Shown here in pieces: positions 2,491-13,191 of a stretch of DNA of 20,000 bases. Numbering within the stretch: the first letter of the stretch is position 1; each line of letters opens with the position of its first letter. Origin of the DNA: an uncultured virus (IMG/VR IMGVR_UViG_3300030099_006113). Taxonomy: Duplodnaviria > Heunggongvirae > Uroviricota > Caudoviricetes. The translations under genes and the position numbers were made by a program. The stretch is from positions 48,174 to 68,173 of the IMG/VR virus record IMGVR_UViG_3300030099_006113; one strand, given 5' to 3'. Below the pieces are notes generated by a model. It did not search any database, had not been told where the DNA came from, and worked only from the letters and a program-made list of their open reading frames with translations.

Positions 2491-4314
2491 CTAGATAGGT
2501 AATCCACCTGGTGGCATGCCTGGTGGTAAAGCTGGCGATCCAGGGGCTCCTCCCATTGGAGCAGCTCCAGGCATCGGTTGTGGTGGTTGCGCCATTTGAA
2601 TCAAAGCTTCTGCTTGAGAAATCCATCGCCTAAGTAGCTCTAGTCTTTCTTCAGGTACCTGGTTTAAGATTGCCAGGTTATATGCTTGTTGAAATCGGAC
2701 AATTCCATACTCAAGATTCATGTATGGCTCAGGTGACACAAAGTTTCCGTTTTCAACCATTTCCTCAATGGCCATATCAAGCACTTCGATATGGGCATTT
2801 TTAAGCTTGTTTGCTCTTTCAAGATCAGGAAAATCTAAAAGCCTATGAGCTTCTTCTTTTGTGAACAATCCATTCTGAGTCATCTCAGTAACAGATGCTA
2901 GCTTTGCTGCTGGGGTCTGAGGCAATGAGCCAATTGGTTTGATTTGCATGACATACTGATCTTCATCGAGATCTACATCACCCCATGAAATTTTATCTAA
3001 ACCAGACTTAGAATCAAAACTCATGGATGTGTAAGGAGAGCCTGGACTGTGAAGGTCCCTTACAAGATCAATAATTTTTTCTGCTGTTTTTATGAAAAGG
3101 CTCTCATACGATTGGCCAACAACCATAAAACGCTCTGACTCAATGTCTGAAAACTCTCTAAGAGCTCGGCCAGATTCAAGACCCGCTGGCTTTTTAGATT
3201 GAGCAGAAAGCTGAGAAATGCCTGTCATCTCATAAGCACGGGCAACAAGTCGGTCTAGGTGTGCAAACATCTCACCAGAAACAGCCCTGGGCACAAAAAA
3301 CTGAGGAGGGCTACCCCTGTATTTTATTGCTCCCCAAACTCTATTGTTTAAATGAGACTGCACAATCCTACTAGTGTCTTCAATAAACACCTTGGGAGTT
3401 GCTAGGTGCATTTGCTCTTGGATCCTAGCAAGGAGCTTATTAATCTCTACCTGAATACCTTTTACTTCCTTTGCCAGGCCATTACCCCAGAAAGAATTAG
3501 GGTCTTCAGTCCAACGAACAAAGACAAAAGGAAAATGGTGCTTCTCATATTCACCATCATAAAGAGTCACGTTTTCAGTGCATATAACGTGTCTGCCGTC
3601 TTTTGCTTCTGGCCCAGAGGGCAAGTGCCAAGCCTCATGGCAAAACACCATATCATTGTCTCGAGTATTATCACTGTAGCTATCGTTCTGAGACTCAATG
3701 ACTTCCATCAGAATCTCTTCCCTTTTATCCGGGAACATCTCAGCTAAAACATGCTTTGAGACTTTTTTAGTCTGGAACATCTGCCGGGGCATTGAGCCAA
3801 ACTCAGACTCATAATGATCAATTGTGATCTCATGAAGAGGGACACGCTCAATCTTTACTTTGCCAAACTCAGAGAAAACCTTAAGAATTCCTGTTCCAGT
3901 AATGCATGAATCAAGAAAACATTTTTGAGCTAATGGATAAATATCAAGAGAGTAAAATTGTCCCTGTATAAACTTGTTAAAGTTCTTTGCTTTTTTCTTC
4001 TGAGAGAAATCACCGCCTTCAGTTAAAAAACTAATTGCAGGTTTATGCTTTGCAATCTTGGCAGTAGCAGCCTGGCATATAGAGTGGATAATGTTAAAAG
4101 TAAGTCGAGGTTGACGCATCATGGCATAACCAGTTGATGCAATGTATCCCTTGTAACTTACAGGCTGGCCATTATAGAGGCCTGAGTGAGTTGCAGCTTC
4201 AGAGTAAAAAGATTCCTGCTCCTCTCTTAATACAGAGATAAAGCTGGAGATTTGATCGGCTGGCTCACTATCTGCCTGCCACCAAAACTTATTATCGTAT
4301 ACTCCGTAGCTCAT
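2491..4314 (-). CDS. Portal protein (P22-like size)
   Basis: 607 aa downstream of terL; 'FNIIHSIC', 'ITGTGILKV', 'FPFV...FWGNG', 'EMTGISQLS...ESGRAL' portal-type motifs; P/M/G-rich C-terminal tail. Confidence 0.85.
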   Translation of the reverse strand: MSYGVYDNKFWWQADSEPADQISSFISVLREEQESFYSEAATHSGLYNGQPVSYKGYIASTGYAMMRQPRLTFNIIHSICQAATAKIAKHKPAISFLTEGGDFSQKKKAKNFNKFIQGQFYSLDIYPLAQKCFLDSCITGTGILKVFSEFGKVKIERVPLHEITIDHYESEFGSMPRQMFQTKKVSKHVLAEMFPDKREEILMEVIESQNDSYSDNTRDNDMVFCHEAWHLPSGPEAKDGRHVICTENVTLYDGEYEKHHFPFVFVRWTEDPNSFWGNGLAKEVKGIQVEINKLLARIQEQMHLATPKVFIEDTSRIVQSHLNNRVWGAIKYRGSPPQFFVPRAVSGEMFAHLDRLVARAYEMTGISQLSAQSKKPAGLESGRALREFSDIESERFMVVGQSYESLFIKTAEKIIDLVRDLHSPGSPYTSMSFDSKSGLDKISWGDVDLDEDQYVMQIKPIGSLPQTPAAKLASVTEMTQNGLFTKEEAHRLLDFPDLERANKLKNAHIEVLDMAIEEMVENGNFVSPEPYMNLEYGIVRFQQAYNLAILNQVPEERLELLRRWISQAEALIQMAQPPQPMPGAAPMGGAPGSPALPPGMPPGGLPI

Positions 4315-4584: not shown

Positions 4585-6081
4585 TCAGTTTACCCACAGA
4601 TCTTCTTCTGAAATCCCAATTCCCCATAGATCTGGATCATACTTATCCTGGCTGTCTCTCTCAAGAAGATTATCAGCAATACGCTCCTCAAGCTGCTTGA
4701 AGTAATCTTTTGTACCCACTTCGGGTCCCGATCCCTCATATTCATGTAGAAAGTGACGACTTTCTGTCCAAGCATAAAGAGCGGCATCCGAAAGGTGATT
4801 ATCAAACCTTCTATCTTCTGCTGTTCTTGATTTGTTGTACTGTAGCTTGTCCCACTCTTTTAGCAGGTCCATTCCACTGGCTACTTTGATTACACCGTTC
4901 TTGATGTCTGAGTTCATGAGTTTAATCATGCCCATTTTGTCGGATGACTTTTTGGCTGGCTTAATTGGTAGCCCAGAGCGCTCTTTGAATGTCTCAAGCA
5001 ACATTCTTGATGAACCACCGCCAGTATCCATTACAATGGAAGAGAAATCATAATCGCCCATAAATGCGTGGATTTTTTCTTCAACCTCAGAAGTCAGCAT
5101 CTTGGTTTGCTTGTATTCATCAATGAAGAAAAGGAATGGATGATCTGGTGACCAAGCAGCGACGACAAAGGCGGTAGCATCATGGTAACCGAGGTCGATA
5201 CCGAGGACGAACTCCCAGTCATTACTTTCGGGAGTATCCTCAAGCAAGTTGTCCTCAGAGTACTCGTAGACGATATCTTGGTCGTTTCTTACCCAGAGTC
5301 CCAAGTACTCGCGCTTATAGGAGGAATCAGTTGGGTCAAGAACCCCACTTTTGATGTCAGCCTCTATGGATCTGACAGCGTGCGCCATGTAGGGATTATT
5401 TTTAACTGTCCACCTGTGAACTGAAAAGCTGTATTTATCCTTTTCAGTAATGTCATAAAAAAATCCTGAACAAGAACTATTAGGCGTAGAAATTAAAACC
5501 AGTGCGCCGTCTCTATCAAGCAAAGCAGGAGTTAAAACTTCGTTTACGAGCTCGCGTAAGTTGATGTTAAAAAAAGCAGCTTCATCAAGAACAGCCAAGG
5601 AAAATGCTGCACCGCGTAATTTATCCACGTCACTTGCATCGTTGGCACCAGTAAAAAGAATCTGAGATCCATTAGGAAAGGTAGCTACAAGGTCTGCATT
5701 ATTAAACTTAATACCAATCCTAAATCTTTGGTTAGCCTCCTTAAGGGAAGCCCACAAAATCCTTTTAGCCGCCTCTCTTGTCCTAGCAATGTAGACACAC
5801 ATGGTGCCTTCGTTCTCAAGGGCCTCTTTGATTAAATAACGCCCTGCAGCATAACTCTTTCCACTTCTTCGACTGCATATAGCAGCCTTCCTCTTTGAAG
5901 GGTCGTTAATGAAATCAAGCTGCTCTTTAAACAAGTTACGAGTCATGTTGAGCATTCGGCTATGCTCAGATCTTCGCTGGGCTTTGTTCTTAGAGGGACC
6001 GGTATGGCCAGACCTGGACACAAAAGCCTCATAAAGCTCTCGACTAGTAAGGCTAATCGTTGGCAGCTTGGTCTTAGCCAT
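4585..6081 (-). CDS. terL: Terminase large subunit
   Basis: Walker A 'SRRSGKS', Walker B 'AVLDEA', 'LISTP' coupling motif, RNase H-like nuclease 'GIDLG..D' and 'FDNHLSDA'. ATG at 6081 (MAKTKLP) preferred over the longer track start at 6120. Confidence 0.95.
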   Translation of the reverse strand: MAKTKLPTISLTSRELYEAFVSRSGHTGPSKNKAQRRSEHSRMLNMTRNLFKEQLDFINDPSKRKAAICSRRSGKSYAAGRYLIKEALENEGTMCVYIARTREAAKRILWASLKEANQRFRIGIKFNNADLVATFPNGSQILFTGANDASDVDKLRGAAFSLAVLDEAAFFNINLRELVNEVLTPALLDRDGALVLISTPNSSCSGFFYDITEKDKYSFSVHRWTVKNNPYMAHAVRSIEADIKSGVLDPTDSSYKREYLGLWVRNDQDIVYEYSEDNLLEDTPESNDWEFVLGIDLGYHDATAFVVAAWSPDHPFLFFIDEYKQTKMLTSEVEEKIHAFMGDYDFSSIVMDTGGGSSRMLLETFKERSGLPIKPAKKSSDKMGMIKLMNSDIKNGVIKVASGMDLLKEWDKLQYNKSRTAEDRRFDNHLSDAALYAWTESRHFLHEYEGSGPEVGTKDYFKQLEERIADNLLERDSQDKYDPDLWGIGISEEDLWVN

Positions 6082-6532
6082 AAGCAACTCTTTGCTCTTC
6101 AGGCGAAGACATAAGCTCAAATATAAAAGCAGGAAGAAGACTACTTACAAAACGAGTGTGCCATTTAGACCGAGCATCCATTTTCTGCATATGAAAGGAC
6201 CAATAAGAGCAAAAAACAGGGTTATCTCTATTACGCACTGTGTCAGGGTATACCTCATTGAGCATTTCACTGCCAATACCATTACCTCTGAAGCTTTTTT
6301 TAACAAAAAGAAAGTGCAGTAATTTTGTTTCTTCTATCTGGCCATAGGCAATCCAGCCTAAAATATGGTCAGCATCGTCTCGGTCGCAGTAAATAAGGAC
6401 TTTTTCGTCCTCAATAACTTTATCAATGAGGTGCCTAGTCATAGCAGTTACTGCTTTTGTGGGGCATTTCACAGATCTAATCCACGAATCATAGACAAAA
6501 TCGTGGTCAATGGGTCTGATTCCTCTAATCAT
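6074..6532 (-). CDS. GNAT-family acetyltransferase
   Basis: 152 aa with acetyl-CoA-binding motif A 'FLFVKKSFRGNGIGSEMLNEV'; overlaps both neighbours. Confidence 0.75.
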   Translation of the reverse strand: MIRGIRPIDHDFVYDSWIRSVKCPTKAVTAMTRHLIDKVIEDEKVLIYCDRDDADHILGWIAYGQIEETKLLHFLFVKKSFRGNGIGSEMLNEVYPDTVRNRDNPVFCSYWSFHMQKMDARSKWHTRFVSSLLPAFIFELMSSPEEQRVAYG

Positions 6533-6857
6533 TGCTTGCCTTCCTTTCCCGAAGTGCCTTTTTCACGAGCTTTTCCAGCTCTTCATTCGACATCTTAGCA
6601 ATAGCATCAGACTTTAATTGCGATTCAATCTCTAACAATCGCTTTAAACCCCCGAAACAACTGTCTAATTTCTGCATATCTTTATTATCTAGCTCGCCAT
6701 TATTGTCTACCTTGTCTTTTAAAAGGGATATCTGGCTTTCTGTTATGTGAAATAAATCATCCCAAAGCTTATGCTTGTCTCTTGATTGAACAATCTGAGG
6801 CTTCTGCCCCATTACGCTGTAGGAACCAGTGGCTCTAGTCTTTTTTGTAGCTGTCAT
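6525..6857 (-). CDS. Putative terminase small subunit / first late gene
   Basis: 110 aa helical protein heading the packaging operon; C-terminal 'MSNEELEKLV' resembles the 'LSDEEL' tail common in TerS. Function mostly from position. Confidence 0.45.
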   Translation of the reverse strand: MTATKKTRATGSYSVMGQKPQIVQSRDKHKLWDDLFHITESQISLLKDKVDNNGELDNKDMQKLDSCFGGLKRLLEIESQLKSDAIAKMSNEELEKLVKKALRERKASND

Positions 6858-6939
6858 AAGAAAAGATTAGACGATGATTTGATCTACAGGCAAGTCAAAG
6901 CTAGAATACAAAGACCCCACAGCTACGGAGTAGACGCCA

Positions 6940-7066
6940 GTGACCCAACGGGTCACCCTTTAGGCGGACACGCAACCCTTGTCGCCCTTCTGTCCGTTTC
7001 GTACCTAACGATAAGACATTACCCAGTTGGATATCGGCAAGGGCAACGGGCGTAGCTCACCGTTGC
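6940..7066. other. Structured non-coding segment (hairpins plus possible pseudoknot)
   Basis: GTGACCC/GGGTCAC (6940-6956), CGGACA/TGTCCG (6965-6996), loop CCCTTGTCG (6976-84) complementary to CGGCAAGGG (7035-43), GCAACGG/CCGTTGC (7043-7066). Confidence 0.45.
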
Positions 7067-7479
7067 AGCACAATATAGGTATCCAATCCTACGGGCTTTT
7101 TAGGTCAATCCGAGGGGGGGTGCTTGAGGGATCTCGATAACGCACTGCGATAAACGAAAATTAGGCAAAAATTCGTAGAGGGTATTTAACACTCTATTGA
7201 CTTTGCTCTCTGGGGGGTACCCCCTGACTATATTGCACTGTAACCGGCAGTAGCGGATGTCCACTGTCATTCCTTGGGCCGTCAGACCTCCGCTCATCGC
7301 TCGGCCTGGTCGCTCCGCGAGTGAATTACACCTCACGAAAATAAACAACTTTCCCATGTTTTCCCTGTATTCCTTGGTATTTTAACCTTTCGTACAGATC
7401 AAAACAGTTCGGTTAATTCACAAAAGGTGCCCGGATACGTTCGTCACTTCCCACCCTCCCACCCTACGGCGTGCGTTGC

Positions 7480-8242
7480 CCTCACGATGCCTCCGGCGGC
7501 GCCTACCCGGCGGGGGCAAACGTGCGACGTTTGATCCGACACCCCCGCCCCCTAGAGAACCTGCGACTCTCGAGCAGGACTACCGACGCTCCCGAAGCCA
7601 TTGAGTACAATGTCTCCGACAGCTTACGAGTCCTGCACTCGGCCACACGTTCTCTCCACCGCAAGTCCGAGAACCTTGGCAATGTTCTTCGCGGGATCTG
7701 CATGCCTCATTAGTCGATAGGCCCGCTCAATGGACTAACGACGCCTGAGTACAGGCTTACGAGTCCATGGGCAGCTACCTGCATCTCTCCGGGATACTAT
7801 CAAGCTGAATTACCCGCTAGAATCAGAGCCACTAACGACGCCTCCGGCTTACGAGTGGCCCTAGATTCGCTACCAGCTCAGAACACTCCGGGCAGGCGAG
7901 TACGCCCGCCTTGCCTCGGAATCGGACGTAGGGTTGTGACAGGAAGGTCTAATCCTACACTCCTGTGCTCTATCTATCTCTATCTCTCGAATTAATCGGC
8001 GTGAGTCTACCAGCCGTCGTCGGGCGGTAAAGGACGGGCGAGTACGCCCGCCAGCCTCTGCGAATAGACACAAAAGATACGGAGTACCGTACTTTTGCAT
8101 CGATTCTTGATTCTGGTTAACGAAGGCCCACACGACTGCTTGGCTGAGTACAGCCAATCAGGCGCTTAATCGGGCCTTCTAATCCTTGACCGTCCTCCTC
8201 CGTCTGGGTCTGCAAGGCCTCACTTAATTCAAGAAGAAATCG
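7480..8242. ncRNA. Candidate large structured ncRNA (or folded ssDNA element) with repeated internal-loop motif and AGTA-capped hairpins
   Basis: Near-continuous stems; three copies of ACT-A(A/C)CGAC-GC..GC-TTACG-AGT in different flanking helices; six G-AGTA-C hairpins; no credible ORF. Strand unresolved. Confidence 0.65.
7574..7859. repeat. Three structural repeats of one internal-loop motif
   Basis: 7574-7636 GCAGGACT-ACCGAC-GCT..AGC-TTACG-AGTCCTGC; 7730-7768 ATGGACT-AACGAC-GCCTG-AGTA-CAGGC-TTACG-AGTCCAT; 7828-7859 GCCACT-AACGAC-GCC-TCC-GGC-TTACG-AGTGGC. Confidence 0.85.
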
Positions 8243-8296
8243 TAAAAAACATAAACAAAACTTACGGTTTCGTAACACTCAAAAAAGGAAGACAAC

Positions 8297-8929
8297 ATGT
8301 CATTGACTCAAAAGTTACTAGCTAAGCACGGCGCTAAGATGTCCAACAAAGCACTGTCCGCTGCAACAACTGGCCAGCACAAGCCAGCGCCTCTTGACCA
8401 GTCTCGCCTGTCCATTGCCTTCGAATTCATTGAGGTGGTAGCCACCATCCAGGTGATGTTTGAGCGTCAAATGGCTCCCGCAGGGTCAGGTGAAGCCTGC
8501 AAGGAAGCATGGAAGGAAATCAAGCAGGCTCTTCGCAAGCCTAGCGGTGAACACGGCCGCTTTTGGCGCGAGATACACACAGCCTGCGACGCGCACGGCG
8601 TCGACTGGTTCGCAGACGGCGGCGCTGACGCTAAGCTGGCTGCGGTCCACTCCATCCGGGTATCACGCGGAGACGTTACGGAAGACGGTCGTGAGGCTCC
8701 GACCCCGGACATGGCGGACTTGCCCCAGGATCCCGAGCCGCGATGGATTGACTGTCCGGCACCGGACGTCACCGACGCCGTGCACGAGGACTACGACGAG
8801 GTCCAGGCTAACCGACTCAGCGAGGTCGGGGCGCACTTCGCCGCAGTTGCGGAGGATGTCGCGTCGTACGGACGCATGTGCAACGGGGTCTGGGTGATGG
8901 ATCACCTGGACACCGACCCGCTCCTCTAA
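8297..8929 (+). CDS. GC-rich orphan hypothetical protein, first early gene
   Basis: 210 aa, AAGGAAG RBS before ATG, basic N-terminus, acidic C-terminal half, followed by a terminator; no family recognised. Confidence 0.7.
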   Translation: MSLTQKLLAKHGAKMSNKALSAATTGQHKPAPLDQSRLSIAFEFIEVVATIQVMFERQMAPAGSGEACKEAWKEIKQALRKPSGEHGRFWREIHTACDAHGVDWFADGGADAKLAAVHSIRVSRGDVTEDGREAPTPDMADLPQDPEPRWIDCPAPDVTDAVHEDYDEVQANRLSEVGAHFAAVAEDVASYGRMCNGVWVMDHLDTDPLL

Positions 8930-8943
8930 GCTTCTTCCAACAT

Positions 8944-8983
8944 CCCCTGGCCCGCTATCGCGGGTTCGGGGGTTCCTTTTTTT
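8944..8983 (+). terminator. Rho-independent terminator
   Basis: CCCCTGGCCCGC-TATC-GCGGGTTCGGGG stem then TTCCTTTTTTT, just after the 8929 stop. Confidence 0.75.
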
Positions 8984-9186
8984 ATGTTCGCTCCTCTAAA
9001 AGAAAATAAAAAAAAGGAAATAAACAAAACGAACTAAAGCTCTTCGAGTTTTCGAAATAAAAAAAAGAAAACAAAAAAAACGAATTGCGTAAGTTCCTTC
9101 ATCGCTCGCTGCCCTCGCTGGGGAGCATTGGGGTCGTCGTGCGCTAAAACCTCTCATAGCGAAAAATCTTTACAGAAAGTAAATCC

Positions 9187-9552
9187 ATGAAAAGAAACGG
9201 CTCAATCAAGAACGCAGGAAGAGTCAGCAAGTGGCTCTACCAAGAGTTCAAGTCTCTCTATGAGGAAACGATTAACAGCTTAGTCCACGAAGCAAGGCGA
9301 AGCAGGTTTGTAGCTGACCGTTTGGTTGAGCGTGGATTTGCTGAAATAACAACAGATCACCCCTCTTCGCCAACAGTCAAAATAACCAACGAAGGCGTCA
9401 GGTACTGCATTACCAACTACGGTATAAAAGACTGCCCTTGCAGTCAGTGCCTGGACGTAAAAAACCTAAGCGGAGACCTGAACGTTGTTGGCTCGTTCTG
9501 GGACTGGGGAGTCATCGATGACTTCGGAGAAGTTTACCTCCGTAAAAAATGA
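9187..9552 (+). CDS. Hypothetical protein, possible winged-helix DNA-binding domain
   Basis: 121 aa; 'LVERGFAEI...VKITNEG' resembles a wHTH wing; CPCSQC cluster. Confidence 0.5.
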   Translation: MKRNGSIKNAGRVSKWLYQEFKSLYEETINSLVHEARRSRFVADRLVERGFAEITTDHPSSPTVKITNEGVRYCITNYGIKDCPCSQCLDVKNLSGDLNVVGSFWDWGVIDDFGEVYLRKK

Positions 9553-11071: not shown

Positions 11072-11890
11072 ATGAGTAAGAAGGTACAAGAAATTGTAAC
11101 GAGCAAGATTATTGAGGCTCTTGAAGCGGGAGTGGCTCCATGGAGAAAGACATGGAAAACGGCAAGATCCAAGAACCTGATTAGCGGTCGTCCATATTCA
11201 GGTGCCAATGCCCTGCTTACTCATCCGATGGTTACAGGATTCAAGGAGCCATCCTTTGTAACCAAGAATCAAATCAAACAAATGGGCATGAAGGTTAAAG
11301 AGGGTGAGAGATACATTCCTATTATTTTTTATGGAACTGGTAAAAACAAAGAGACGGAAAAATCATTCCGTTTTCAAAGATTTTATCCTGTTTATAACGT
11401 TGAACAAATTGAAGGATTTGAGATCTCAGAACAGAAAGAAAACAGAGAAGAATGCATCAACAAGAATGCTGAAGAAATAATTGCAGAATGGGCAGGTAAA
11501 CTACCAATTAGGTATGGCAATCATAACCCATGCTACTCTCCAATGGTTGATACAATCTTTATGCCTGAAATAAAATCCTTTGAATCAGATGCTGAGTATT
11601 ACAGCACAATATTCCATGAGTTATCTCATGCGACTGGTCATGGATCTAGGCTTAACCGCGAAAGCGTTGCCTCACTAAAGAGGGACTCTCACAAGTATTC
11701 TGAAGAGGAACTTGTAGCAGAGTTAGGTAGTGCATTCCTCTGCCATTACACAGGCGTTGAAGGCGTATTCGACAACCAAGCGAGCTACTGTCAGAACTGG
11801 CTTTATGCCCTTAAGAATGACCGTAGCATTATCCTGCGAGCCGCAAGGCAAGCAGATAAATCTTTTAAACTAATAATTGGAGAATCTTAA
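11072..11890 (+). CDS. ardC: ArdC-like antirestriction protein (ssDNA-binding domain plus zincin-like metallopeptidase domain)
   Basis: 'IIEALEAGVAPWRKTW', 'NLISGRPYSGANALL', HExxH 'FHELSHATGH..RLNR', 'YSEEELVAELGSAFL', 'ASYCQNWL'. Confidence 0.92.
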   Translation: MSKKVQEIVTSKIIEALEAGVAPWRKTWKTARSKNLISGRPYSGANALLTHPMVTGFKEPSFVTKNQIKQMGMKVKEGERYIPIIFYGTGKNKETEKSFRFQRFYPVYNVEQIEGFEISEQKENREECINKNAEEIIAEWAGKLPIRYGNHNPCYSPMVDTIFMPEIKSFESDAEYYSTIFHELSHATGHGSRLNRESVASLKRDSHKYSEEELVAELGSAFLCHYTGVEGVFDNQASYCQNWLYALKNDRSIILRAARQADKSFKLIIGES

Positions 11891-12448: not shown

Positions 12449-13191
12449 GTAGATTTGAAATTAATTTACCAGATGAAAAGCTCCGCATAAAGCCACCTAG
12501 GTCAATCTATTACGGGCCACCCAAGATTGGTAAGTCTACATTTGCCAGCAAGTTTCCATCTCCCATTTTTATTCAAGCAGAAGATGGTGTGTCTGGCCTA
12601 AATGTTTCCAAGATACCAAGGACTCCTTTGGTTTCGTGGGATGAGCTCATGAAATGCTGTGATCAAGTACTTAAATCACCCCATGAAATGAAAACCTTGG
12701 TTGTAGATACTATCGACCGAGTTGAGCACTTATCTCGCCAGTGGGTTCTTAAGCATACATATTCAAATAACAAAAAAGACTTTATGGCTTACTTCAAAGG
12801 ACCAGTTGAAGCAGGTCAGAAGATATCCGAGCTACTCGCTTGTCTTGATCAGATCAGAGATGAGCGAGGAATGAATATCATTGTTCTTAGTCATGAAGGT
12901 CTGCACAAAGGGGCTGATGAGCTTGGCGAAGAGTTCAAGAAAACGGCCCCATCTGTTTCTCGCTATGCATGGGAGCAGCTACACAACTGGGCAGATCAAA
13001 TAGGCCACATCACGAATGACTTCAGAGTTGTTCAAGGTAAGGCACGTCAGGCCAACAAAGGCAGACACATTGTATTTTCGGGTCACCCAGGCAAAGAGGC
13101 CGGTACTCGAGCTGGCTATGAAATGCCAAAAGAAATCAAACTAAACTTTGAGGAATATCTCAAACACACAAAGGAGTACCTTGCATGCTAG
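12445..13191 (+). CDS. AAA_24 / Sak4-like phage ATPase (recombination)
   Basis: Walker A 'YGPPKIGKST', 'FIQAEDG', Walker B 'TLVVDTID', 'IIVLSH'; followed by an SSB-like gene as is usual for Sak4. Confidence 0.85.
   Translation: MSRFEINLPDEKLRIKPPRSIYYGPPKIGKSTFASKFPSPIFIQAEDGVSGLNVSKIPRTPLVSWDELMKCCDQVLKSPHEMKTLVVDTIDRVEHLSRQWVLKHTYSNNKKDFMAYFKGPVEAGQKISELLACLDQIRDERGMNIIVLSHEGLHKGADELGEEFKKTAPSVSRYAWEQLHNWADQIGHITNDFRVVQGKARQANKGRHIVFSGHPGKEAGTRAGYEMPKEIKLNFEEYLKHTKEYLAC

What the first reader, a model, noticed from the sequence alone, without database searches (positions are those of the whole stretch)
7480..8983. GC-rich cassette: ~800-nt folded element, orphan ORF and terminator at the head of the early region
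Seen: further stems tile the gap (GGCGGGGG/CCCCCGCC enclosing CAAACGT/ACGTTTG 7509-7549; GCGGG/CCCGC 7691-7726; AGCTG/CAGCT and GAATC/GATTC extending motif copy 3; GAAGGCCC/GGGCCTTC 8122-8179; CCTTG/CAAGG; closing TTCTTGA/TCAAGAA 8104-8235). Then come an A-rich spacer, the 210-aa ORF and a terminator. Composition differs from flanks: line 8581-8640 is 44/60 G+C, versus 22/60 for line 11281-11340 in ardC. Wobble orientation is mixed (some G-T, some A-C on plus), so the strand is unclear and folded ssDNA remains possible. Inference: a self-contained large ncRNA plus partner protein, comparable in scale to GOLLD/ROOL-type phage RNAs but not recognised as either. An antitermination leader or an ssDNA promoter/origin region are alternatives.
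Basis: partly seen in the sequence, partly recalled or inferred. Interest (0 to 1): 0.85.

Follow-up and report, generated by a model that had tools for sequence, protein, structure and literature searches.

The report
Large modular RNA in marine phage
The GC-rich gap holds a roughly 680-base, highly folded non-coding RNA of a new family, read from the opposite strand to the neighbouring gene, found so far only in a few uncultured marine phages and of unknown job.

Summary
Window 7553-8235 folds far better than shuffles on both strands. It is 76-85% identical to four independent marine contigs whose terminase gene is only about 70% identical. It has no coding signal and no Rfam match.

The structure is kept on the minus strand, the sense of the terS-like/terL/portal/capsid genes (76 G.U against 2 A.C cells; strand-neutral test 11 against 0).

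The RNA ("E1") has three parts:
- a 5' core domain, shared with two further lineages of the phage clade;
- a purine-rich linker;
- a 3' array built from two repeated units.

The first unit is a hairpin with an invariant G-UACU-C loop on differing stems (6 copies here, 4-8 in relatives by my reading). The second is an asymmetric internal-loop module (3 here, 3-7 in relatives). Whole hairpins come and go between relatives.

ORF 8297-8929 is a real but rare early gene with its own terminator. It is not an obligate partner: the three closest E1 relatives carry a different gene there.

Function is inferred only. My best guess is a multivalent docking RNA at the head of the late gene block. No expression data could be obtained.

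The parts
7553..8235 (-). E1: conserved modular structured RNA, about 680 nt. This is the whole element.
   Evidence: Identity is 84.5% over 588 nt to L005, 76.2% over 660 nt to L056 and 75.8% over 674 nt to L034, and 95.4% over 151 nt to L072. The consensus has 192 pairs with 98.3% of cells paired. 11 pairs changed on both sides, against 5.1+-1.5 in shuffles (0 of 500 reach it) and 0-3 in slid controls. Strand comes from G.U asymmetry. There is no codon periodicity and the indels are not multiples of 3.
7996..8235 (-). 5' core domain. It is closed by pairing of 8225-8235 with 7985-7995.
   Evidence: Inverted repeat I25; helices 1-6. It is homologous in L010/L103, L089 and L108, which lack the 3' array. 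In that wider alignment there are 18 G.U against 1 A.C in the terL sense, and 3 against 4 in the antisense.
8063..8104 (-). The most widely conserved arm (AUCGAUGC.AAAG-cap-CUUU.GUGUCUAUU). It is capped here by a GUACUC hairpin at 8077-8092.
   Evidence: A regex finds it in the window, L005, L034, L056, L010 and L089, with different caps. Helix 5 has 18 pairs, 100% paired.
8117..8179 (-). Arm with a GUACUC hairpin (8140-8157). It is absent from L005 and L056 and replaced by a larger branched insert in L034.
   Evidence: Clean 59-nt indel in the alignments.
8033..8052 (-). GUACUC-loop hairpin (GGCGGGC stem). In L056 and L034 a full internal-loop module sits at this place.
7970..7988 (-). Purine-rich, apparently unpaired linker (GAGAGAUAGAGAUAGAUAG on the minus strand).
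   Evidence: Conserved and left unpaired in the consensus. GA-rich tracts lie at the same place in L010, L089 and L108.
7891..7910 (-). GUACUC-loop hairpin, absent from L005 as a clean hairpin-sized deletion.
7826..7860 (-). Internal-loop module, copy 3. The outer stem is CCACU/AGUGG and the cap is a GGA loop.
   Evidence: R1 hit of 48.6 bits, E 1.9e-12. The outer stem differs from the other copies by compensatory changes, GG/CC to CC/GG.
7729..7768 (-). Internal-loop module, copy 2, capped by a GUACUC hairpin (7743-7756).
   Evidence: R1 hit of 66.4 bits, E 3.5e-18.
7553..7658 (-). 3' long arm. It holds module copy 1 (7574-7635) and a GUACUC hairpin (7599-7612).
   Evidence: Helices 20-21: 38 pairs, 100% paired. 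Compensatory CAUUG/CAAUG against CAUGG/CCAUG. R1 hit of 37.2 bits.
7227..7552 (-). Variable spacer between E1 and block B. It has a window-specific GC hairpin (7509-7549) and the G-tract GGGUGGGAGGGUGGG (minus strand of 7450-7464).
   Evidence: No detectable similarity to L083, L072 or L010. Hairpin -29.2 kcal/mol, z -2.43.
6858..7226 (-). Block B: a second conserved non-coding block directly upstream of the terS-like ORF. It opens with the perfect palindrome GGGGGTACCCCC (7213-7224).
   Evidence: Its signature occurs in 24 IMG/VR stretches. All 23 B-bearing loci queried have orf110-GNAT-terL downstream. Hairpins with fully covarying stems: 19 of 35 predicted pairs show two or more Watson-Crick types. 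The strand is not settled.
8236..8296 (.). A/T-rich spacer between the 5' end of E1 and ORF210. This is the presumed site of the divergent promoters.
   Evidence: Sequence. No sigma-70-type match there. The spacer is absent in L005, L056 and L034, where the early gene's ribosome site abuts E1.
8297..8929 (+). ORF210: a rare early protein of unknown function. It is not part of the RNA element.
   Evidence: Two homologue clusters, 91% and 34% identity, both 210 aa. Conserved APDVTDAVHEDY block. No Pfam or PHROG family.
8942..8983 (+). Terminator-like hairpin plus U7 run after ORF210.
   Evidence: The simple scanner did not list it because the U run starts 4 nt after the stem.

Best explanation
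Window 7553-8235 encodes a roughly 680-nt structured non-coding RNA on the minus strand. I call it E1. It lies in the divergent control region between the rightward early genes and the leftward packaging and structural genes of a small uncultured marine tailed phage.

Shown:
- It is non-coding.
- It is more conserved than the terminase gene.
- Its helices are kept through compensatory and G.U changes that work only on the minus strand.
- It is modular, with three parts: a 5' core domain shared with other lineages of the clade, a purine-rich linker, and a 3' array.
- The array reiterates two units. One is a hairpin with an invariant G-UACU-C loop on unrelated stems. The other is an asymmetric internal-loop module, 5'-ACU CG UAA G...C GU CG KU AGU-3'.
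- Copy number differs between relatives through gain and loss of whole hairpins.

Inferred:
- It is transcribed leftward from the A/T-rich spacer at 8236-8296. It is either a separate RNA or the far-upstream part of the long leader that continues through block B into the terS-like gene.
- It acts as a multivalent docking platform. Each invariant loop or module is one binding site, either for a protein (phage or host) or for another loop or module.
- Dosage of sites matters more than one fixed global fold.
- It is accessory: most clade members with the same block B and late genes lack it.

ORF 8297-8929 is a separate early gene with its own terminator.

My odds: structured RNA on the minus strand, about 0.85. 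Multivalent docking role, about 0.45.
For: Excess folding: z -7.49 on the minus strand and -5.35 on the plus strand.

Homologues lie in independent contigs: L005/L047, L002/L003, L034, L056 and L072.

Nucleotide identity to the L005 contig (L083) by segment:
- E1: 84.5%
- block B: 79%
- terL: 70.5%
- orf110: 70%
- GNAT: 65%
- spacer and right flank: no detectable similarity

Strand:
- In a consensus built without G.U, the non-Watson-Crick cells are 11 G.U on the minus strand against 0 on the plus strand.
- With G.U allowed, the minus strand has 76 G.U and 2 A.C; the plus strand has 21 G.U and 11 A.C.
- The wider 5'-core alignment gives 18 G.U against 1 A.C in the same sense.

Structure:
- 192 pairs, 98.3% of cells paired.
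- 11 pairs changed on both sides, reached by 0 of 500 shuffles; slid controls give 0-3.

Non-coding:
- Substitutions by codon position are 12/23/20, 23/30/33 and 37/42/42.
- Indel lengths include 1, 2, 7, 10, 13, 22, 25, 42, 59 and 132.

Repeated units:
- GTACTC occurs 16 times in the window, against 5.2+-2.35 expected. 0 of 200 shuffles reach 16.
- Six of them cluster on the minus strand at 7603-8151, and each is the loop of a hairpin with a different stem.
- Across 9 paralogous module copies, 95.1% of cells pair and 6 of 14 pairs changed on both sides (5 of 500 shuffles reach that). 17 columns are invariant, in the internal loops and the adjacent stem bases.
- The module model R1 hits 19 sites in the E1 family and 2 in an unrelated 1-kb non-coding region of another marine phage, L018. 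There they lie on the strand of the gene that follows.

Accessory status: of 24 IMG/VR stretches with block B, nhmmer finds E1 in 4 (L109, L092, L093, L097) and a weak partial match in L103.
Against: - There is no direct evidence of transcription. No RNA run was listed, so the strand rests on substitution patterns alone.
- No sigma-70-type promoter was found at the inferred 5' end, and no intrinsic terminator at the 3' end. The host is unknown. The transcript limits are therefore inferred from where conservation stops.
- In L005, L056 and L034 the early gene's ribosome site abuts E1. A plus-strand transcript must then also cross at least part of the element.
- The comparative depth is small: 4 full and 2 partial sequences, 76-95% identical. 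Many helices never vary.
- High identity could partly reflect recent exchange between phages rather than purifying selection alone.
- The docking role has no tested partner.
Confidence: 0.6

Rival explanations
1. E1 is purely a cis-acting 5' leader of the late (packaging and structural) operon. It is made as one transcript with block B and the terS-like gene. It works on that transcript only, for example by making RNA polymerase terminator-resistant over the long late unit, or by protecting or timing the mRNA.
For: - It has the same sense as terS-like/terL/portal/capsid and lies directly upstream of them.
- No terminator was detected between E1 and block B in this window.
- In L018 the module-bearing region also runs straight into a gene on the same strand.
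Against: - Most clade members with the same block B and late genes lack E1, so the late operon does not need it.
- In most relatives the GGGGGUACCCCC hairpin at the head of block B is followed by a U-rich tail, and conserved promoter-like spacing follows it (my reading of the alignment). That would separate E1 from the late mRNA.
- Known cis antitermination RNAs are far smaller and not built of variable-copy repeats (recalled).
Confidence: 0.2
2. The element functions on the plus strand as a long structured leader of the early operon.
For: - In L005, L056 and L034 the first early gene's ribosome site lies within about 15 nt of the element, so early transcripts must start in or left of it.
- The plus strand also folds better than shuffles, z -5.35.
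Against: - On the plus strand the same helices carry A.C mismatches where the minus strand has G.U: 76 such cells.
- The strand-neutral test gives 11 against 0 for the minus strand.
- Alifold energy is better on the minus strand, -435.8 against -366.2.
- The right-flank genes differ between relatives while the left flank is syntenic.
Confidence: 0.07
3. It is a DNA-level element: a packaging or replication site, hairpin promoters on extruded or single-stranded DNA, or a cluster of small mobile palindromic repeats.
For: - It lies next to the packaging genes.
- Whole hairpins are gained and lost between relatives.
- Three contigs end inside the element: L002, L003 and L072.
- G.T wobble would also be tolerated in single-stranded DNA.
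Against: - Loops are invariant while stems differ and covary. This is the reverse of what protein-bound DNA palindromes or copied mobile repeats show.
- Long-range helices hundreds of nt apart are conserved.
- The phage is a dsDNA tailed phage with no ORF above about 1,100 aa in its half of the record, so there is no giant virion polymerase of the N4 kind (size recalled).
- The contig break points differ (model positions 241 and 495), so they do not mark one fixed genome end.
Confidence: 0.06
4. The island is an assembly artefact or a chance GC-rich stretch with no function.
For: The 68-kb record itself looks like two related genomes of about 34 kb joined head to tail.
Against: - The element recurs in the same synteny in independent contigs from other samples.
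- It is the best-conserved stretch of the locus.
Confidence: 0.02

Closest known systems
GOLLD and ROOL (large ornate RNAs, often in phages and prophages)
   Same: - Several hundred nt long.
- Many conserved helices.
- Phage-borne.
- No known function.
- Stands out from a lower-GC genome.
- According to the abstract of PMC12286853 (seen in the search listing), GOLLD, ROOL and OLE form homo-oligomeric RNA-only complexes. E1's repeated, partly self-complementary loops would allow something similar. That last point is inference.
   Different: - No match to any of the 4,227 Rfam models, at gathering score or at a meaningful E-value.
- E1 is built from reiterated units whose copy number varies between close relatives, rather than one fixed ornate fold.
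- It sits at the early/late divergent region, not beside tRNA genes (0 tRNAs in the window).
Multi-site decoy or scaffold RNAs of the CsrB/RsmZ type (recalled)
   Same: One short conserved loop motif is displayed on many hairpins with unrelated stems, and the number of sites varies between relatives.
   Different: - The motifs differ: G-UACU-C loops and a CGUAAG/CGUCGKU internal loop, not GGA loops.
- E1 also has long-range helices and a conserved core.
- No partner protein is known.
- It is phage-encoded.
11-nt GAAA-tetraloop receptor and loop-receptor self-assembly (recalled motif: CCUAAG on one strand, UAUGG on the other)
   Same: The E1 module has the same 6-nt/5-nt layout, with UAA in the long strand: CGUAAG facing CGUCG. 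As I read it, 10 of 11 positions are identical or changed compensatorily.
   Different: - The position that is A in the short strand of the receptor is G here.
- There is an extra 2-nt bulge (KU) below.
- I saw no GAAA loops in E1.
- This is a resemblance from memory. No tool tested it.
phi29-type packaging RNA (pRNA) and HK022 put antitermination RNAs
   Same: Phage non-coding RNAs that serve packaging or late transcription. pRNA multimerises through loop-loop pairing (recalled).
   Different: - Both are much smaller (recalled).
- Rfam scans of the window returned no such family.
- E1 is dispensable within its clade, unlike an essential motor part.

Membership tests
GOLLD / ROOL / OLE / HEARO and any other Rfam 15 family | The sequence and structure score at or above the family's gathering threshold. 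| tested here: not met
   There were 0 matches in the whole window at gathering score. The permissive scan of 6900-9300 gave 4 matches, all far below gathering: mir-737, Scr6925, XIST intron and PhotoRC-I, with best E 0.28.
Structured non-coding RNA (generic) | Base pairs are kept through compensatory change, beyond controls. | tested here: met
   11 pairs changed on both sides against 5.1+-1.5 in shuffles (0 of 500 reach it), and 0-3 in slid controls. 98.3% of cells are paired. Paralogous module copies: 6 of 14 pairs changed on both sides.
Structured non-coding RNA (generic) | Not protein-coding. | tested here: met
   No third-position excess. The indels are not multiples of three. No frame is open across the element in all four sequences.
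Structured non-coding RNA (generic) | It is transcribed. | not testable with these tools
   No RNA holder was listed for 7539-8235, so no reads could be laid.
Conjugative leading-region ssDNA promoter (Frpo/ssi type) | It lies in the leading region of a conjugative element, next to oriT, and folds as single-stranded DNA into a promoter-like hairpin. | tested here: not met
   The context is a tailed phage with capsid, portal and terminase genes. No sigma-70-like hexamers were found in the element. The ArdC-like gene at 11072-11890 here is a phage early gene.
   0 of 3 E1 relatives with right flank have the ORF. Both other ORF-bearing loci, L089 and L108, lack the array. They do carry the 5' core.
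11-nt tetraloop receptor | The exact receptor consensus, together with a cognate GAAA loop in the same RNA. | tested here: inconclusive
   Only the layout was compared, by eye, with a recalled motif. One key position differs. No three-dimensional or biochemical test was possible.
Intrinsic terminator (after ORF210) | A GC-rich hairpin followed by a U run. | tested here: met
   Hairpin at 8942-8973, -22.9 kcal/mol, z -3.26, then U7 at 8977-8983.

The most novel reading that the evidence does not exclude
E1 is a self-associating or decoy RNA. One version: its four to eight GUACUC loops contain the self-complementary GUAC and, together with the receptor-like CGUAAG/CGUCG modules, dock on each other within and between molecules. 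This would build an RNA-only assembly in the infected cell, a marine-phage counterpart of the ROOL/GOLLD cages with a different, repeat-based design. The other version: the repeated sites soak up a host RNA-binding defence or regulatory protein. Either way it would be an accessory RNA weapon or scaffold placed at the early/late switch.
Probability: 0.15. Interest if true: 0.85.

Novelty: new variant of a known kind. Interest (0 to 1): 0.62.

Why it matters
Very few large structured RNAs without a known job are known in bacteria and phages. Each has turned out to be structurally unusual.

This one adds a family with a distinct building principle: a conserved core plus a variable-copy array of two small invariant motifs. 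That makes it easy to test. One can mutate loops against stems, change copy number, or pull down partners.

It also shows that the early/late control region of a whole clade of uncultured marine phages is occupied by about 1-1.4 kb of conserved, folded non-coding sequence (E1 plus block B). Gene callers fill this stretch with spurious ORFs.

It is rare so far (about five independent contigs). Its host and its expression are unknown, which limits its immediate impact.

Tried and rejected
- **Rfam**, gathering and permissive: nothing usable.
- **tRNA/tmRNA scan:** none.
- **Phage GenBank collection:** DNA searches in near and distant modes found no match. terL by tblastn reaches only about 26% identity, to Vibrio phages, so there is no cultured relative and no host.
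- **RNA sequencing runs:** none was listed.
- **Bacterial and archaeal species genomes:** 0 hits for the module pattern and 0 for the block B pattern. This gives no prophage copy and no host clue.
- **Chance pattern matches discarded:**
  - L004/L030/L048 lie inside an ORF of more than 1,600 aa.
  - Of the 36 metagenome loci, only L034, L047 and L056 gave BLAST matches to the element.
  - L117, L119, L120, L125 and L139 carry the same weak match; L117, the only one examined, lies inside a 666-aa ORF. L135 lies inside a 719-aa ORF.
- **ORF210:**
  - No Pfam or PHROG family.
  - No close relative in IMG/VR by the search for related loci.
  - The AlphaFold model had mean pLDDT 44.2, too poor for a fold search, so none was run.
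  - No usable hit in the protein atlas.
  - No PDB hit at E up to 1.
- **ORF 7100-7357 (85 aa):** tblastn hits cover only residues about 45-75, where it overlaps conserved block B. I judge it spurious.
- **Promoter scan:** no sigma-70-type site at either end of E1.
- **Literature:**
  - One full-text search for large structured phage RNAs.
  - Passages and searchable supplements of PMC10690425. No hit for the related contig numbers, but files 1, 2 and 4 were not searched, so that catalogue may still hold fragments of this element.
  - A search for the motif strings returned only unrelated siRNA papers.
- **More distant terL relatives (about 60% identity):** their large upstream gaps show no similarity to E1.
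- **Earlier notes of this scan:** none for this place or sequence.
Full report
**Setting**

The window is bases 48174-68173 of a 68,173-bp IMG/VR virus record. A self-comparison shows that 64887-68173 resembles 30341-33959 (80-85% identity) and that 1-111 resembles 34725-34835. The record therefore looks like two related genomes of about 34 kb joined head to tail. The window lies in the second one.

- Minus-strand genes in the window encode a capsid protein (322-1563), a portal (2491-4314), the large terminase (4585-6120), a GNAT acetyltransferase (6074-6532) and a 110-aa protein (6525-6857).
- Plus-strand genes from 8297 onward are early-type. They include an ArdC-like anti-restriction protein at 11072-11890, a Sak4-like annealing protein, an O-like initiator and a DnaC-like loader.
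- The finding lies in the 1.44-kb gap (6858-8296) between these divergent blocks.
- No cultured phage is close. terL reaches only about 26% identity, to Vibrio phages.

**Observation check**

- The GC rise, the 210-aa ORF and a terminator-like hairpin with a U7 run after it are all present.
- The gap folds much better than dinucleotide shuffles on both strands: z -5.35 on plus and z -7.49 on minus, with 0 of 20 shuffles as good in each case.
The proposed closing stem and the stems at 7509-7549 and 7691-7726 are not kept in relatives.

**Relatives**

- A pattern taken from the repeated motif found the element in IMG/VR contigs L005, L002 and L003, and in metagenome contigs L034 and L056. A second pattern added L072.
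- All other pattern matches gave no BLAST or nhmmer match to the element. The ones I opened (L004, L117, L135) lie in long ORFs.
- Identity to the window is 84.5% (L005), 76.2% (L056), 75.8% (L034) and 95.4% for the 3' arm of L072.
- In the same L005 contig (L083), terL is 70.5% identical at the nucleotide level, GNAT 65% and orf110 70%. The spacer at 7231-7538 and everything right of 8235 show no detectable similarity.
- The left flank (orf110, GNAT, terL) is syntenic in the three relatives whose contigs reach it (L083, L068, L072). The right flank is not.
- The conserved core is 7553-8235.

**Not coding**

Substitutions show no third-position excess. Indel lengths are mostly not multiples of three. 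No frame stays open in all four sequences. The ORFs that a mechanical list places here (7471-7713, 7503-7703, 7870-8157) are therefore spurious.

**Strand**

The same helices exist on both strands, except that G.U on one strand is A.C on the other.

- In a consensus computed with G.U forbidden, which is neutral between the strands, the non-Watson-Crick cells are 11 G.U on the minus strand and 0 on the plus strand.
- With G.U allowed, the minus strand has 76 G.U and 2 A.C cells. The plus strand has 21 G.U and 11 A.C.
- The minus alignment folds with lower energy.
- One-sided changes in the pair table are G-C to G-U or A-U to G-U on the minus strand.
- A wider alignment of the 5' domain gives 18 G.U against 1 A.C in the same sense, and 3 against 4 in the other.

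So the folded molecule is the minus strand, in the sense of the packaging genes.

**Structure**

On four sequences the consensus has 192 pairs, with 98.3% of cells paired. 11 pairs changed on both sides, against 5.1+-1.5 in column shuffles (0 of 500 reach it) and 0-3 when partners are slid by 1-3 columns. Many helices never vary, so the details are provisional. Reading 5' to 3' on the minus strand:

- A 5' domain (8235-7996), closed by 8225-8235 pairing with 7985-7995. It holds a long imperfect helix, the well-conserved arm at 8063-8104 and two further hairpins.
- A purine-rich unpaired tract (plus coordinates 7970-7988).
- A central multi-branch domain with module copies 3 and 2.
- A long 3' arm with module copy 1 (7553-7658).

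Whole hairpins differ between relatives as clean indels:

- 7891-7910 is missing in L005.
- 8117-8179 is missing in L005 and L056 and is replaced by a branched insert in L034.
- The simple hairpin at 8033-8052 is replaced by a full module in L056 and L034.

**Two reiterated units**

The first unit is a hairpin with the loop G-UACU-C.

- The window holds 16 GTACTC words, against 5.2+-2.35 expected (0 of 200 shuffles reach 16).
- Six of them lie on the minus strand between 7603 and 8151. Each caps a hairpin whose stem differs from the others.
- With a stem of at least 3 pairs, the script counts 3 such hairpins in L005, 4 in L056 and 8 in L034. One more, with a mismatched stem, is visible in L005 and in L056.
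- A few lone hairpins of this kind also sit upstream of block B in clade members without E1: L090, L099/L110 and L101.

The second unit is an asymmetric internal-loop module.

- Its layout is: outer stem, a 2-bp CG/CG step, UAA facing GU, then an inner stem with a variable cap. A KU bulge lies on the 3' side.
- Counts are 3 in the window and L005, 5 in L056, 7 in L034 and 2 in the L072 fragment.
- Across nine paralogous copies, the internal-loop letters and the adjacent stem bases are invariant (17 columns in all). The outermost stem pairs and the inner stem vary with compensation, and 6 of 14 pairs changed on both sides.
- The caps range from a 2-bp stem with a triloop, to a 20-bp arm, to a nested module. 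The internal loop is therefore a motif in its own right.
- A covariance model of the module (R1) found only the three copies in the whole 68-kb record.
- Outside the family it found two copies in L018. There they lie in another GC-rich non-coding stretch of about 1 kb between divergent genes, on the strand of the gene that follows.

**Wider family and block B**

- The 5' domain is also present in L010/L103, L089 and L108 (and L105 is nearly identical to L089 over its last 424 nt upstream of block B), with a different 3' region instead of the module array.
- Downstream of E1, just before the terS-like ORF, lies a second conserved non-coding block (6858-7226).
- Block B opens with the perfect palindrome GGGGGTACCCCC and holds several hairpins whose stems covary completely.
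- Its signature occurs in 24 IMG/VR stretches, and each of the 23 B-bearing loci queried is followed by orf110-GNAT-terL.
- nhmmer finds E1 in only 4 of these stretches, plus a weak partial match in L103.
- E1 is thus an accessory expansion within a clade-wide, largely non-coding control region.
- The strand of block B could not be settled.

**The ORF**

- ORF210 is a real but rare protein. It has two homologue clusters, both of 210 aa, at 91% and 34% identity, with a conserved acidic block.
- Nothing could be learned about its function.
- It has its own terminator.
- The three E1 relatives with right-flank sequence have a different first early gene.
- Homologues at 31-34% identity occur in L089 and L108, next to the RNA's 5' core but without the array.
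- Co-occurrence with the array therefore fails. The partial co-occurrence with the core is what shared gene order would give by itself.

**How it probably works (inference)**

- The combination is typical of a platform that presents many equivalent docking sites: invariant loops on free stems, an invariant internal loop under free caps, and copy number that drifts between close relatives.
- I therefore favour a multivalent docking RNA made from the minus strand at the head of the late block.
- The partner may be a protein, or the loops and modules may dock on each other. GUAC in the loop is self-complementary. The module also has the 6/5-nt layout of the classical tetraloop receptor, but that is a recalled resemblance and was not tested.
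- A purely cis leader role is the main rival.
- A plus-strand leader, a DNA-level site and an artefact are each disfavoured by specific results (see the rival explanations).
- Promoter, terminator, host and expression remain unknown.

**Novelty and verdict**

- No described RNA family matches.
- The literature searches I could run found no description. Three supplementary files of the IMG/VR structured-RNA catalogue could not be searched.
- I rate it a new family of large phage RNA with an unusual repeat-based design.
- The existence of a conserved, folded, minus-strand element is well supported. Its function is open.

Noticed in passing
window 6858-7226 (minus sense); L089-L112: Block B is a second conserved non-coding block directly upstream of the terS-like ORF. 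It is present in 24 IMG/VR stretches. It opens with the perfect palindrome GGGGGTACCCCC (7213-7224), which is followed by a U-rich tail in most relatives. It holds several hairpins with fully covarying stems. It could be the late promoter or operator plus a structured 5' UTR, or a packaging site. The strand is not settled.
   Followed up: partly
whole record G000 (window = 48174-68173): The 68-kb record looks like two related genomes of about 34 kb joined in tandem: 64887-68173 resembles 30341-33959 and 1-111 resembles 34725-34835. The first copy has only about 270 nt between its terL-like ORF and the first plus-strand ORF, so it has no room for an E1-sized element.
   Followed up: partly
L018 950-2010 (minus strand); same contig as L128: Another marine phage has a GC-rich non-coding region of about 1 kb between divergent genes. 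It holds two hits of the E1 module model. It also holds a different repeated unit (CGUAAGUGCGCGUCUAG ... GGAACUGGAAAACUUC) and long purine tracts before the next gene. It may be a distant cousin of E1.
   Followed up: partly
L089 3814-4771 and L108 about 600-1480: This lineage has about 950 nt of non-coding sequence at the E1 position. It carries the E1 5' core but a different 3' region, and it lies next to an ORF210 homologue. Folding z-scores are modest: -2.13 in the terL sense and -3.17 in the antisense.
   Followed up: partly
window 7450-7464 (minus strand): GGGUGGGAGGGUGGG: four G3 runs with 1-nt spacers, a textbook G-quadruplex pattern. It lies in the non-conserved spacer just downstream of E1. 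The 3' edge of E1 in L005 and L056 is also G-run rich.
   Followed up: no
window 6074-6532 (minus strand): A GNAT acetyltransferase gene sits between the terS-like gene and terL. It is conserved at that place in all 23 block-B loci queried (47-70% identity) and, at 36%, in L018. This is an unusual fixed member of a packaging module.
   Followed up: partly
window 7100-7357 (minus strand): This 85-aa ORF is probably not a gene. Similarity in relatives covers only the roughly 30 residues that overlap conserved block B.
   Followed up: yes
window 13171-13182 (minus strand): One more GUACUC-loop hairpin (AAG GUACUC CUU) lies outside E1. It sits at the junction of the Sak4-like gene and the next ORF. 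It may be chance.
   Followed up: no
L005 2925-3386: In the L005, L056 and L034 lineage the first early gene, which abuts E1, encodes a 153-aa protein. It has a weak sub-threshold match to a YspA/SLOG-type family (E 0.001, 19.3 bits against a cutoff of 28.2).
   Followed up: no
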